From sequence record NC_047979.1: a DNA stretch of 64,000 nt; one strand, given 5' to 3'. This document shows positions 1-42,240 of the stretch, piece after piece; position 1 is the stretch's first letter, and each line of letters starts with the position of its first letter. The position numbers were made by a program, and so were the translations under genes. The notes beneath the pieces are model-generated. The model did no database searches and was not told where the DNA came from. It saw nothing but the letters and a program-made list of their open reading frames with translations. Origin of the DNA: Escherichia phage Gostya9.

Positions 1-408
1 AATACAGTAACGTCTATTATTTTCCAGTTTAAGTCAAGGTGACTTAGTGGTTATGCCCTGCGGTATACTGGGGACTCGGTTAGGTTAGGGTCATGACTTC
101 CTACCTTTTTGCTGCTACTCAACAGGAGTTATCGCGAATTACCTGTGCTATTGTGCACCATTAGTGGCATCTCTCATGCCAGCATTTCCCACTTTGTGGA
201 TAGTTTGAAAAACTACTCCGATATGGAGGGAGAACTTCACTATCCTAGAATACCTTCTAAAGTTCTTCTTTAGCCTGGACATAGTTAAATCGTAATAAAA
301 CTATTCAGCAGACTGGTTGGTTAGCCTGGAACCAACTACCGCGTGGTTTAGGCAGTGCGCAACTAACCTCGGAAGCTTTTACGTTAAAAGCACCAGTTAT
401 CCAGTTCT

Positions 409-480
409 TACCGATCGTAGGATTCGAACCTACATCTTCCACCAGTTACGGCTTGATAATACCGTTTATACTAGATCGGC
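409..480 (-). tRNA. tRNA-like element (possibly degenerate tRNA or pseudo-tRNA); anticodon not assignable
   Basis: Minus-strand sequence GCCGATC...GTAGG-TTCGAAT-CCTAC-GATCGGT-A gives a canonical T-arm (5-bp stem, TTCGAAT loop) and a 7-bp acceptor stem with G1-U71 and discriminator A. The 40 nt between them do not fold into standard D and anticodon arms by hand (only an ACGG/CCGT 4-bp stem with a 10-nt loop). It lies directly downstream of an early-type promoter at 557-585. Confidence 0.4.
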
Positions 481-556
481 AGTGTTACTACATAAGTGAT
501 TTCCACACCCCACTATTTATAACTTAGAGAAGAATTACTCTCTAATTTATGAATAT

Positions 557-585
557 ATTATACAGAATTTATAAGCATTTAGCAA
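557..585 (-). promoter_or_regulatory. sigma70-type early promoter (TTGCTA-N17-TATAAT) directed toward the tRNA-like element
   Basis: Minus-strand reading gives TTGCTA, a 17-bp spacer, TATAAT, then the conserved box ATATTCATAAATT. Confidence 0.5.
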
Positions 586-1036
586 ATGAATTTTTAGAAA
601 ACTCGCTAGCAATCAAGGCGGCTGTTTTACCATCATAACGCCCTGGAAATTCTGCCTTAATAGTTTTCATTAAGAGAGCTTTGGTAATGCCTGGGTTTAG
701 TTTAACTAATTCTGCAAAGTATTTACGAATTTCAGTATCAGATAACTGAGGAGGCAGATACTCCTGCAACCACTTATTTAGAATGTATTCATACTGAGCG
801 GACTGCAAGCTATAACTATCAAGATCTTGACCATGAAGTTTAGCTTTCATTTGGTTAATGCTTTTTAGTTGAGCTTTGAGATAAGACACAAATTGTTCAG
901 AAGTGATGAAATCTTTATCAATACGCTGAAGATCCCCGATTATGGTCTGGTAGCTTTTAGCGACTTCTTTATCAGAACCATTAAACTTAGAATCCTGCAA
1001 AGCTCTACGCAAAACAGCTAAAATATTCTCTTCCAT
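569..1036 (-). CDS. hypothetical protein (155 aa)
   Basis: ORF with ATG start at 1036 whose ATG overlaps the TAA of the upstream small ORF (TAATG). No recognisable motif. Confidence 0.6.
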   Translation of the reverse strand: MEENILAVLRRALQDSKFNGSDKEVAKSYQTIIGDLQRIDKDFITSEQFVSYLKAQLKSINQMKAKLHGQDLDSYSLQSAQYEYILNKWLQEYLPPQLSDTEIRKYFAELVKLNPGITKALLMKTIKAEFPGRYDGKTAALIASEFSKNSFAKCL

Positions 1037-1206
1037 TATTTCATCCCCAATGCTTGGTTGAAAGATTGTTCTGTCATAACTGCTGAGACTTTGGCGAAAT
1101 CAAACTTTTTAGGGTTCGTAGTGATCTCAGCAACGTTGGAAGTTTTAACAGTTTTCGTAGTACGAATACCGCGAGTGTTAACACCAATGACGACCAAGTT
1201 TTTCAT
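1036..1206 (-). CDS. small hypothetical protein (56 aa, below the 60-aa ORF-track threshold)
   Basis: ATG at 1206-1204 preceded by GAGAGGAAG RBS and the promoter at 1238-1266. Translates MKNLVVIGVNTRGIRTTKTVKTSNVAEITTNPKKFDFAKVSAVMTEQSFNQALGMK. Its stop overlaps the next ATG. Confidence 0.45.
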   Translation of the reverse strand: MKNLVVIGVNTRGIRTTKTVKTSNVAEITTNPKKFDFAKVSAVMTEQSFNQALGMK

Positions 1207-1237
1207 ATTTCGCTTCCTCTCATTAATTTATGAAAGT

Positions 1238-1266
1238 ATTATACAGAAGTTTAAGTATTTAAGCAA
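1238..1266 (-). promoter_or_regulatory. sigma70-type early promoter (TTGCTT-N17-TATAAT)
   Basis: Minus strand TTGCTT, 17-bp spacer, TATAAT, followed by the CATAAATT box and an RBS. Confidence 0.5.
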
Positions 1267-2112: not shown

Positions 2113-2495
2113 ATACATTTTTAAATTGTGAAACTAGTAAACCGATAAACAGCCTAGGGGCGCCACAGGCCATATCTTATGAGCCATGTACCTTTGATCT
2201 AGGGTTTGAATCATCAACGAATACTTTGCATCTTTTAGCTTTAGAAGTTTAGAAGTTTGAGTTCTTTAAACTTTTCAGCTTTCATACTTAAATGTTGATC
2301 TTTGAAGTTGTGTCGGTAATATCAACGACGCTTTGTTTTTACGTGTCAGATTAAATGTCTGATGTAATAAACATAATCTCCAATAGATTATACTTTATAG
2401 TATGGTCAGCGGTCTTATTTAACCTCGTATTTCAACCGCTGCTGCGAGGTAAGATGCTTGGGCTTTCGTCTACCGATTTACTAGCTTTTAAATTA

Positions 2496-3134
2496 TTACT
2501 CTACTTCAATGAAAGTAGAGGCATTGGACTCAGACAGAACAAAGTCAACATTAGTTGCAAAGTCCTGGTATTCTTCGTCGTGCTGCTTGATCAGCTTTTC
2601 CAGCTCCAGCGGATCAATCAAGAATGGGGTATTCTTGAGTTCCAACAGGTTGAGCTGCATTTTAACTTCATCTTCGGAAGTTTTCTTATCGCGGGTAGCC
2701 ATGCTATCCTGCAAACGCTCATATTTAGCATCAAACTGTGCTTTCTGCGTATTAAACTTAACCGTAGCGGCATGGAACTGCTTACGCATATTAGCCAGCA
2801 ACTGAGCTTTAAGTTCCATAGAACGTTTAGCTTCAATTGCTTCTGCAACAGTCATTTTACGAGAACCAATCTCAACGATTGTTTCCGCATTGCTCTTAAT
2901 CAATGCTGCTTTGATACGATCACGTTGGGACAGCATATCTAGTAGGGATTGGAAATCTGTCTTAATACGATTAGACAGATCTTCTACTTCGATTGCGGCA
3001 CCAACTACAACCTGGTTTTTATCCTTACCTTCACCAACAGCGATCAGAAGCTGTTGTTCAGTAGCTTTACGGATTTTAGCTTCCAGAGATTTGATGGTTG
3101 CCAGAGCACGAGTTTTAGAGATACGAGTGGTCAC
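2496..3134 (-). CDS. hypothetical protein (212 aa), probable GTG start
   Basis: Long ORF with AAGGAAG RBS 7 nt upstream of GTG at 3134 and no in-frame ATG nearby. Charged, coiled-coil-like composition. Confidence 0.5.
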   Translation of the reverse strand: MTTRISKTRALATIKSLEAKIRKATEQQLLIAVGEGKDKNQVVVGAAIEVEDLSNRIKTDFQSLLDMLSQRDRIKAALIKSNAETIVEIGSRKMTVAEAIEAKRSMELKAQLLANMRKQFHAATVKFNTQKAQFDAKYERLQDSMATRDKKTSEDEVKMQLNLLELKNTPFLIDPLELEKLIKQHDEEYQDFATNVDFVLSESNASTFIEVE

Positions 3135-3186: not shown

Positions 3187-3369
3187 TTACAGACCCATTG
3201 CCAGTAAGGTACGCAGAACAGTATCTTTACTATTATCAATTTTAGGATTAGCACGATTTAGCAGATCAAAGATTTTCTGGACACCTGATTGACGTTCAGC
3301 CATACGACGGATACCCAGATTACGAGTAGCTTTCTTACCATTTTTACGAACATTTTTAGATACTGGCAT
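3187..3369 (-). CDS. small basic hypothetical protein (60 aa)
   Basis: ATG-initiated ORF immediately downstream of the promoter at 3411-3439; Lys/Arg-rich. Confidence 0.45.
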   Translation of the reverse strand: MPVSKNVRKNGKKATRNLGIRRMAERQSGVQKIFDLLNRANPKIDNSKDTVLRTLLAMGL

Positions 3370-3440: not shown

Positions 3441-4142
3441 TCAAATTTTCATTTTTTCGATCATAGCTGCAACACAATAGCTCTCAACTAAGGCATCGAA
3501 TGCTGGGTCGTGCTTAACCGGATATATCCCGTAACGAATGGTGTCCATCTTCTCCATTTTAGCTATTGCCCAGCTAATACCTTCGGTCTCTAGAGCCTTA
3601 TAACTGTATCCAGCTTGCATCCAGAGATTACGAAGGGATCGAACATTACCCAAATTCCAGAATTTCCACGGAACTATTTCTTCATTGGTTCCAGCATGGA
3701 AAGTGTTTGCAGAGTAGATAGTCATATCAAACTCTGGGCCATTGCCATAATACAAAGCATTTTCGCCTAGAGCCAATTCCATAATGTTTTTAGCCATAGA
3801 ATAAGCTGCATAGTTAGAGCCGAGCTTATTAGTACAGTGATGTTTACCATCTTGAAAAGCAATCAGCTTTGGATTACGCTCGTTCATAGCTTCCATAATG
3901 TGGAAAGCAGACGGACTATTTTTAGCTTGATCCATCCAGAATGCTAGAGTAGATGCTGTAACTTTGGCACCAGAATTAAGCTGATCCTGCACATCCAAAG
4001 TAACAAACACTAGATCAGGGTCTTTATCAATTCCGTGCATAGCCACAAAAGCGAAAGAAGGCATTACGATATGAGTAGTACCACAATCTCCCGGAGTTCC
4101 TAGAGATTCAATATCTAACATACCAAATGGTTTTACTTTCAT
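3441..4142 (-). CDS. putative 3'-5' exonuclease (DEDD / DnaQ-like fold)
   Basis: N-terminal FGMLDIESLG resembles DEDD exonuclease motif I (D-x-E); 233 aa. Motif-level inference only. Confidence 0.45.
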   Translation of the reverse strand: MKVKPFGMLDIESLGTPGDCGTTHIVMPSFAFVAMHGIDKDPDLVFVTLDVQDQLNSGAKVTASTLAFWMDQAKNSPSAFHIMEAMNERNPKLIAFQDGKHHCTNKLGSNYAAYSMAKNIMELALGENALYYGNGPEFDMTIYSANTFHAGTNEEIVPWKFWNLGNVRSLRNLWMQAGYSYKALETEGISWAIAKMEKMDTIRYGIYPVKHDPAFDALVESYCVAAMIEKMKI

Positions 4143-42042: not shown

Positions 42043-42240
42043 CTATGCTAAGTTCTCTATATTAACAAGTTTATTTACAAAGGCTTTAAGTTCTTCAGCG
42101 AAGTTACCGCGACCACCCAAACCGTTACCGATCCAGGAACCAATTAAACCACCGATCGCACCACCGATACCAGCCGCACCAGCTTCACCGCCGAAACCGT
42201 CGCCACCGAGATTAGTAGGTAAAAGAGTCGTGTCAGACAT
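42043..42240 (-). CDS. small glycine-zipper protein (about 65 aa; a longer 106-aa form from ATG 42363 is possible)
   Basis: ATG at 42240 with GGAG RBS 8 nt upstream. MSDTTLLPTNLGGDGFGGEAGAAGIGGAIGGLIGSWIGNGLGGRGNF carries repeated GxxxG motifs; last minus-strand gene before the convergent terminator. Confidence 0.45.
   Translation of the reverse strand: MSDTTLLPTNLGGDGFGGEAGAAGIGGAIGGLIGSWIGNGLGGRGNFAEELKAFVNKLVNIENLA

What the first reader, a model, noticed from the sequence alone, without database searches (positions are those of the whole stretch)
1036..1206. 56-aa gene hidden below the ORF-track threshold
The promoter at 1238-1266 is followed by an RBS and a 56-codon ORF whose stop overlaps the ATG of the next gene. 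The track instead shows a 70-aa antisense ORF on the plus strand. Other promoter-proximal gaps may hide similar short genes.
Basis: seen in the sequence. Interest (0 to 1): 0.35.

Follow-up and report, generated by a model that had tools for sequence, protein, structure and literature searches.

The report
Known small phage T5 early gene
The 56-codon reading frame is a real, conserved and transcribed small gene of T5-like phages, but it is already annotated (T5.082) and already has a Pfam family (DUF7616), so only its function remains unknown.

Summary
On the minus strand there is a T5-type promoter (TTGCTT-17-TATAAT, 1266-1238), a GAGAGGA ribosome-binding site, and a 56-codon ORF (1206-1036). 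Its TAA stop overlaps the ATG of the next gene (TAATG). The window is a Tequintavirus (T5-like phage).

The ORF is the orthologue of T5.082, 98% identical. It is annotated as a hypothetical protein in essentially every annotated record examined, out of 437 that encode it, and the T5 record names the promoter P-D/E 33. It matches Pfam DUF7616 end to end (109 bits, cut-off 27) and PHROG 5077.

Evidence that it codes:
- It is intact in all 33 related loci.
- Variable columns are concentrated at third codon positions (14/8/33).
- dN/dS is 0.05-0.25.
- Its codon-usage score equals the mean of the phage's own genes.
- AlphaFold gives a confident fold (pLDDT 92).
- The Bas33 orthologue is transcribed at about 1,000 TPM.

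The 70-aa plus-strand ORF is a shadow frame. It stays open because the protein has no Tyr or His, and it is broken in one relative.

The gene was "hidden" only by the first stage's 60-aa display threshold. Function is unknown: there is no significant fold or sequence relative outside T5-like phages. The finding is ordinary and of low interest.

The parts
1238..1266 (-). Sigma-70 early promoter: -35 TTGCTT (1266-1261), 17-nt spacer, -10 TATAAT (1243-1238). Equivalent to the promoter annotated 'P-D/E 33' in T5.
   Evidence: Sequence read. Motif class is 13 observed against 0.03 expected. Both hexamers and the spacer length are conserved in 33 related loci, including KKP_3711. The T5 record annotates a promoter at the homologous place.
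1215..1221 (-). Shine-Dalgarno sequence GAGAGGA; the AGGA core ends 8 nt upstream of the ATG.
   Evidence: It is invariant in the Tequintavirus and Epseptimavirus loci. KKP_3711 has ACGGAGA at the same place.
1036..1206 (-). Protein-coding gene of 56 aa (6.1 kDa, pI 10.4). Orthologue of T5.082, Pfam DUF7616, PHROG 5077.
   Evidence: ORF. 98% identical to T5. Pfam 109 bits against a cut-off of 27, covering 1-56 of 56. PHROG 5077 at 1.4e-40. Intact in 33 of 33 loci. dN/dS 0.05-0.25 and variable columns 14/8/33 by codon position. Codon log-odds +0.42 bits per codon, equal to the mean of true genes. AF2 pLDDT 92. Bas33 orthologue at about 1,000 TPM.
1034..1038 (-). TAATG stop/start overlap that couples the 56-aa gene to the downstream gene.
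   Evidence: TAATG is present in all 33 Markadamsvirinae loci, while the preceding bases that could serve as an SD vary. It is replaced by a longer overlap in the distant metagenomic contig L034.
569..1036 (-). Second cistron of the operon: 155-aa T5.081-like protein (PHROG 1460 'tRNA amidotransferase'; weak YqeY-like match).
   Evidence: YqeY 19.7 bits, below the cut-off of 27. PDB 1ng6 YqeY at E 0.088. Found in 459 phage records.
1058..1270 (+). 70-aa antisense 'shadow' ORF, not a gene. It runs through the promoter and RBS of the real gene.
   Evidence: No Pfam or PHROG match. Codon log-odds -0.13 bits per codon, against a shadow-frame mean of -0.09. Its third codon positions are in register with those of the real gene, and stops in it would need Tyr or His/Gln codons in particular contexts that the gene lacks. 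It is interrupted by a stop in L028, where the protein has R12H.

Best explanation
Window 1036-1206 (minus strand) is a genuine protein-coding gene, the orthologue of bacteriophage T5 gene T5.082 and a member of Pfam DUF7616.

It is the first cistron of a two-gene operon. Host sigma-70 RNA polymerase transcribes the operon from the T5-type promoter at 1266-1238 (T5 'P-D/E 33'). Ribosomes load at a strong Shine-Dalgarno sequence. After terminating at TAA they can re-initiate on the overlapping ATG of the T5.081-like (YqeY-like) gene.

The product is a small (6.1 kDa), basic (pI 10.4), soluble protein with a compact beta-beta-alpha-beta-alpha fold. It is confined to T5-like phages (Markadamsvirinae and close metagenomic relatives).

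Shown here: the gene is real, conserved under purifying selection, transcribed in a close relative only after second-step DNA transfer, and always sits in this operon position.

Inferred: translational coupling, and the time of expression (it lies in the region that the T5 literature maps as early genes).

Molecular function is not established. My best guess, at roughly 25-30%, is a non-essential accessory protein that binds RNA or tRNA, or the co-translated YqeY-like protein, within the phage's tRNA-gene region. The alternative, of about equal weight, is a stand-alone binder or inhibitor of a host protein, as for many small early phage proteins.
For: - Identity: tblastn finds the protein in 437 phage records. 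All cover at least 80% of the query, and all but 12 are 80% identical or more. T5 is 98.2% identical, and annotated records carry a CDS there. Exact CDS coordinates match in six records checked.
- Family: Pfam DUF7616 at 8e-32, full length. PHROG 5077.
- Coding: intact in 33 of 33 loci. Variable columns 14/8/33 by codon position and dN/dS 0.05-0.25. Sixteen invariant residues across members down to 54% identity. Codon-usage log-odds +0.42 bits per codon against a true-gene mean of 0.419.
- Structure: AF2 pLDDT 92, pTM 0.73.
- Expression: promoter, SD, ATG and TAATG are conserved. The promoter motif class is 13 observed against 0.03 expected. The T5 record annotates promoter 'P-D/E 33'. In Bas33 RNA-seq, bas33_0078 reads 1094 and 977 TPM at 20 min, and 8 and 7 TPM when second-step transfer is blocked (PMC13250531).
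- Context: the order cREC_REC, SleB-type hydrolase, DUF7616, YqeY-like is kept even in a contig whose DUF7616 protein is only 54% identical to the window's.
Against: - No direct protein-level evidence (peptides or ribosome footprints) was available to me. The proteome table of PMC13250531 is not among the held supplements.
- I did not confirm that the RNA-seq is strand-specific.
- dN/dS alone discriminates poorly from the antisense frame, because third positions coincide.
- Against the 'partner of the YqeY-like protein' idea: the YqeY-like gene exists without any DUF7616 gene in Pectobacterium phage DU_PP_V and Proteus phage PM135. In Bas33 the downstream gene has about 4 times the TPM of the 56-aa gene.
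Confidence: 0.93

Rival explanations
1. The plus-strand 70-aa ORF (1058-1270) is the real gene and the 56-aa ORF is its antisense shadow.
For: It is the longer ORF and stays open in most relatives. Its apparent dN/dS is also below 1 (0.15-0.50).
Against: - It starts with TTG, I saw no SD, and it reads through the promoter and RBS of the opposite strand.
- It has no Pfam or PHROG match.
- Its codon score is -0.13 bits per codon, typical of shadow frames.
- Its low dN/dS follows from sharing third positions with the true gene.
- It is open only because the real protein lacks Tyr and His.
- It is broken by a stop in L028.
- All six annotated records inspected in detail call the other strand.
Confidence: 0.01
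2. The 56-codon ORF is translated only as a leader (upstream ORF). Its translation delivers ribosomes to the T5.081-like gene, and the peptide itself has no function.
For: TAATG coupling is conserved, while the bases that could act as an SD for the downstream gene vary (GGGGATGAAA, GGAATGAAA, GAAGCAAAA, GAGGCCGAA). The ORF has a strong SD of its own.
Against: - The amino-acid sequence is constrained: dN/dS 0.05-0.25.
- Sixteen residues are invariant across members down to 54% identity.
- A profile finds homologues of 54-59 aa at E as low as 1e-19.
- AF2 gives a confident globular fold, pLDDT 92.
- Distant Demerecviridae express the YqeY-like gene without this ORF.
Confidence: 0.03
3. Function rival A: the protein is a dedicated subunit or chaperone of the co-translated YqeY-like protein, acting on phage or host tRNA.
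For: Stop/start overlap in all 33 Markadamsvirinae loci. Synteny is kept at 54% identity. The protein is basic, pI 10.4. The operon lies next to the RNAX/tRNA region. The partner is annotated 'tRNA amidotransferase'/YqeY-like.
Against: The YqeY-like gene occurs without it in DU_PP_V and PM135. The YqeY assignment is itself below Pfam's threshold. No interaction was tested.
Confidence: 0.28
4. Function rival B: the protein is a stand-alone small early protein that binds and modulates a host protein (host takeover or anti-defence), like T7 Gp2, T4 Dmd or phi29 p56.
Against: All fold matches are below significance. The protein was not scanned against PADLOC or any anti-defence collection, and no genetic data exist.
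Confidence: 0.28

Closest known systems
Bacteriophage T5 gene T5.082 (AAS77128.1, AY543070 complement 42051..42221) with promoter 'P-D/E 33'
   Same: Same length (56 aa) and 98% identity. Same position between the SleB-type hydrolase gene (T5.083) and T5.081. The 75 nt upstream, including promoter and RBS, are identical. Same TAATG overlap.
   Different: One amino-acid difference (V5 in place of I5). The downstream partner gene in this window is of the SP3/T5_ev219 type and diverges from T5's over its first ~95 codons.
Pfam DUF7616 (PF24592) / PHROG 5077
   Same: End-to-end match, 1-56 of a 56-position model, at 109 bits and 138 bits respectively.
   Different: None. Both families are of unknown function, so membership adds no mechanism.
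Small early phage proteins that bind host macromolecules (T7 Gp2, T4 Dmd, phi29 p56)
   Same: Size (50-65 aa), a small alpha/beta fold, and a gene sitting directly behind its own strong promoter.

Membership tests
Pfam DUF7616 (PF24592) | Score above the curated gathering threshold (27 bits) against the family HMM. | tested here: met
   109.4 bits, E 8.2e-32.
Pfam DUF7616 (PF24592) | Full-length coverage of the 56-position model. | tested here: met
   Residues 1-56 align to model positions 1-56 of 56. All 21 database homologues carry a precomputed PF24592 hit.
Orthologue of T5.082 | High identity to AAS77128.1 and the same genomic position (between T5.083 SleB-type hydrolase and T5.081). | tested here: met
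   98.2% identity over 56 aa. Neighbours match Hydrolase_2 and PHROG 1460. The order is the same as in AY543070.
T5 early-class sigma-70 promoter | -35 TTGCTW, 17-nt spacer, -10 TATAAT. | tested here: met
   TTGCTT-17-TATAAT at 1266-1238. Motif class is 13 observed against 0.03 expected. Conserved in relatives.
T5 early-class sigma-70 promoter | ATATT discriminator downstream of -10, said to be shared by the early promoters identified to date (PMC7472727). | tested here: not met
   The discriminator is ACTTT here, and ACTTT or ACTTC in all Tequintavirus and Epseptimavirus relatives. The neighbouring promoters at 585-557 and 2112-2084 do have ATATT.
T5 early-class sigma-70 promoter | Early temporal class of the transcript. 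| tested here: inconclusive
   The Bas33 orthologue is expressed at 20 min and depends on second-step DNA transfer. There is only one time point, and no 5'-end mapping.
Small phage inhibitor folds (T7 Gp2, T4 Dmd, phi29 p56) | Significant structural similarity to a solved member. | tested here: not met
YqeY/GatB_Yqey domain (for the coupled downstream gene 569-1036) | Pfam PF09424 score above the gathering threshold. | tested here: not met
   19.7 bits against a cut-off of 27. PDB YqeY 1ng6 at E 0.088. PHROG 1460 at 1e-44 carries the label 'tRNA amidotransferase'. The relationship is plausible but remote, and the structure was not modelled.

The most novel reading that the evidence does not exclude
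DUF7616 is a lineage-specific gene that arose or was inserted, together with its own strong promoter, between the SleB-type hydrolase gene and the YqeY-like gene in the ancestor of the Markadamsvirinae. It encodes a new small fold that acts on tRNA/RNA metabolism or disables a host factor, for example a defence system that targets tRNAs.
Probability: 0.2. Interest if true: 0.4.

Novelty: already known. Interest (0 to 1): 0.08.

Why it matters
It matters mainly as a calibration point. A 60-aa ORF display threshold hides real phage genes, and the longer antisense 'shadow' ORF can mislead a reader. Biologically, this is one more conserved small gene of T5-like phages whose function is unknown. 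It is well folded, transcribed and lineage-restricted, so it is a reasonable but not outstanding candidate for a functional screen.

Tried and rejected
- Generic sigma-70 scan: it did not list this promoter, and overall it found fewer sites than the shuffles did (7 against 9.9). I replaced it with the phage-specific motif.
- dN/dS as a discriminator between the two strands: weak, because the third positions coincide. I relied instead on ORF integrity, codon usage, family matches and expression signals.
- NCBIfam: no hit.
- Exhaustive HMM search of 1.84 billion representatives: 9 hits. Three are long, mostly repetitive proteins matched only over short partial stretches, which I judged spurious. 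One is a frameshifted fragment. No remote family emerged.
- Literature: searches for T5.082, DUF7616 and T5p08x found nothing.
- Proteome evidence from PMC13250531: the table is not among the held supplements.
- 'Obligate partner of the YqeY-like protein': weakened by DU_PP_V and PM135, which lack the gene.
- 'More hidden short genes behind promoters': not supported.
- PADLOC and anti-defence libraries were not searched for this protein.

Full report
**What is in the sequence.** Read on the minus strand, window 1300-1015 contains the following, in order:
- TTGCTT at 1266-1261;
- a 17-nt spacer;
- TATAAT at 1243-1238;
- GAGAGGA at 1221-1215;
- ATG at 1206;
- a 56-codon ORF ending in TAA at 1038-1036.

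The last A of the stop is the first base of the ATG of the next ORF (1036-569, 155 aa). The plus strand carries a 70-aa ORF with a TTG start at 1058-1270.

ORF length alone proves nothing. The same 3.5 kb holds several clearly non-genic ORFs of 60-195 aa. The generic sigma-70 scan did not list this promoter because TTGCTT matches TTGACA at only 3 of 6 positions. The phage's own promoter type, TTGCTW-N17-TATAAT, occurs 13 times in the window against 0.03 expected from shuffles, and this site is one of the 13.

**Where the window comes from.** The region is 94-95% identical at the nucleotide level to Tequintavirus genomes such as SP3 and T5_ev219, and 443 phage records match it.

The 56-aa protein is found by tblastn in 437 records. 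All cover at least 80% of the query, and all but 12 are 80% identical or more. In a spread sample of 60 records, every annotated one has a CDS under the match.

In T5 itself (AY543070) it is T5.082/AAS77128.1, 98% identical. The record annotates a promoter named 'P-D/E 33' directly upstream. Matching CDS calls are present in SP3, T5_ev219, KKP_3711, S124 and HildyBeyeler/Bas33.

The protein matches Pfam DUF7616 end to end (109 bits, cut-off 27) and PHROG 5077. So the gene is already known and already has a family. It was 'hidden' only by the 60-aa display threshold of the first stage.

**Is it really coding?**
- The ORF is intact in all 33 related loci, including one at 57% identity with a two-codon length difference.
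- Among 20 distinct nucleotide versions, variable columns fall 14/8/33 on codon positions 1/2/3. Pairwise dN/dS against the window is 0.05-0.25.
- A codon log-odds model trained on the window's 33 ORFs of 200 aa or more gives +0.42 bits per codon. That equals the mean of 56-codon windows taken from true genes (0.419). The antisense ORF gives -0.13, typical of shadow frames (mean -0.09).
- An alignment reaching 54% identity keeps 16 invariant residues.
- AlphaFold2 on 21 sequences gives a confident compact fold, E2-10, E15-22, H26-35, E37-45, H46-53, with pLDDT 92 and pTM 0.73.
- Promoter hexamers, spacer length, SD, ATG and TAATG are conserved in all the Markadamsvirinae loci.

**Expression.** A 2026 study of Bas33 (phage HildyBeyeler), whose copy is 98% identical, lists bas33_0078 at 3537 and 2608 reads (1094 and 977 TPM) 20 min after infection. 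[quoted passage not shown]

This shows transcription that depends on second-step DNA entry, as expected for a gene outside the pre-early region. I did not confirm that the library was strand-specific, and I could not see the proteome table. Translation is therefore inferred, not shown.

**Why the antisense ORF is there.** The 70-aa frame has its third codon positions in register with those of the real gene. In that register an antisense stop requires one of two contexts in the gene: a codon ending in a pyrimidine followed by TAN, or a codon ending in T followed by CAN. The protein has no Tyr and no His, and neither of its Gln codons sits in that context. So the frame is open by default.

In phage STG2 (L028) the protein has R12H, and the antisense frame acquires a stop at the corresponding place. 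The antisense ORF also has no family match, has a TTG start, and runs across the promoter and RBS. It is a by-product of the real gene.

**How it works, as far as the evidence goes.** The gene is the first cistron of a two-gene unit, promoter, DUF7616, then the T5.081-like gene. That unit is followed by another promoter (585-557, T5 'P 16-17') driving the RNAX/tRNA region.

The TAATG overlap is invariant in Markadamsvirinae, while the bases upstream of the second ATG vary. This fits termination-reinitiation coupling, which is an inference.

The product is basic (pI 10.4) and has a negative mean hydropathy (GRAVY -0.18), as expected of a soluble protein. The partner is remotely YqeY-like: Pfam 19.7 bits, below threshold; PDB 1ng6 at E 0.088; PHROG label 'tRNA amidotransferase'.

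The order cREC_REC, SleB-type hydrolase, DUF7616, YqeY-like is kept in a metagenomic contig whose DUF7616 protein is only 54% identical to the window's. cREC domains have been proposed to process cyclic phosphates in RNA-repair or NAD-conflict contexts (PMC7824862), but here that gene lies in the separate upstream transcription unit.

Pectobacterium phage DU_PP_V and Proteus phage PM135 have the SleB-type and YqeY-like genes without any DUF7616 gene. The small gene and its promoter are therefore an addition specific to Markadamsvirinae, not an obligate partner.

I therefore commit only weakly on function. It is either an accessory RNA/tRNA-related factor working with the YqeY-like protein, or a stand-alone binder of a host protein. 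I give each about a quarter to a third probability.

Of 19 promoter matches in the window, only two lead into ORFs of 60 aa or fewer: this one, and 3187-3369 (60 aa), which corresponds to annotated T5.086. Of the five matches my script flagged as having no ORF:
- 585-557 drives the non-coding RNAX/tRNA region;
- 24560 and the 35835/35935 pair precede ordinary larger genes that simply failed my crude SD filter;
- 52526 was not examined.

I found no sign of further hidden genes of this kind.

**Verdict.** It is not new: the gene is T5.082/DUF7616, annotated across the family. Interest is low. The only open question is the function of a lineage-restricted small protein.

Noticed in passing
window 1-585 (minus strand): The stretch downstream of promoter 585-557 has no credible ORF. 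It maps inside T5's annotated 'RNAX', a 719-nt stable RNA of unknown function (AY543070 40848-41566). It contains a tRNA-like element at 408-481 that ARAGORN calls tRNA-Ser with the odd anticodon ACT (Rfam tRNA 39 bits). Some records annotate it as tRNA-Ser-ACT; T5 does not.
   Followed up: partly
window 569-1036 (minus strand): The downstream T5.081-like gene is mosaic. Nucleotide similarity to T5 stops just after the 56-aa gene's stop codon and resumes near window 748. Protein identity among tequintaviruses falls into bands from 50% to 97%. Records name it variously as 'tRNA amidotransferase', 'recombination-related exonuclease' or 'YqeY-like', while the Pfam YqeY match is below threshold.
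   Followed up: partly
L035 (Pectobacterium phage DU_PP_V) 1040-1950; L036 (Proteus phage PM135) 212-1923: More distant Demerecviridae lack the DUF7616 gene and its promoter. In DU_PP_V the SleB-type gene sits 8 nt from the YqeY-like gene. In PM135 a Clp-protease-like gene is inserted between them. This dates the 56-aa gene to the Markadamsvirinae lineage.
   Followed up: yes
window 1231-1237 (minus strand), compared with 550-556 and 2077-2083: The discriminator of this promoter is ACTTT (ACTTC in some relatives). It is not the ATATT reported as common to the T5 early promoters identified to date (PMC7472727), although the two neighbouring promoters do have ATATT.
   Followed up: partly
Bas33 RNA-seq (PMC13250531 Dataset S1), genes bas33_0077 to 0079: Within the presumed operon, the second gene (bas33_0079) has about 4 times the TPM of the 56-aa gene (bas33_0078). 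This suggests differential mRNA stability or processing, an internal start, or a short-gene counting bias.
   Followed up: no
L033 (phage HildyBeyeler/Bas33) 1-670: The cREC_REC-domain gene (T5.084 homologue) upstream of the SleB-type gene is annotated as intein-containing in Bas33. The window's copy (1737-2054, 105 aa) has no intein.
   Followed up: no
window 2113-2495: This is a gap of about 380 bp between the T5.085-like gene (2496-3134) and the promoter at 2112-2084. It has no annotated feature in T5 or its relatives and holds only ORFs of about 30 aa or fewer on the minus strand.
   Followed up: no
database entries P0010; OR848534.1; host labels: Near-identical T5-like sequences are labelled 'Enterococcus faecalis', 'Listeria phage' and 'Campylobacter' in public databases. 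These are probably contamination or mislabelling rather than real host range.
   Followed up: no
L034 4001-4607 (JGI metagenome contig): In the most divergent relative the DUF7616 ORF has lost the TAATG stop. It runs 59 nt into the next gene (73 aa instead of 56), so the coupling geometry is not universal.
   Followed up: partly
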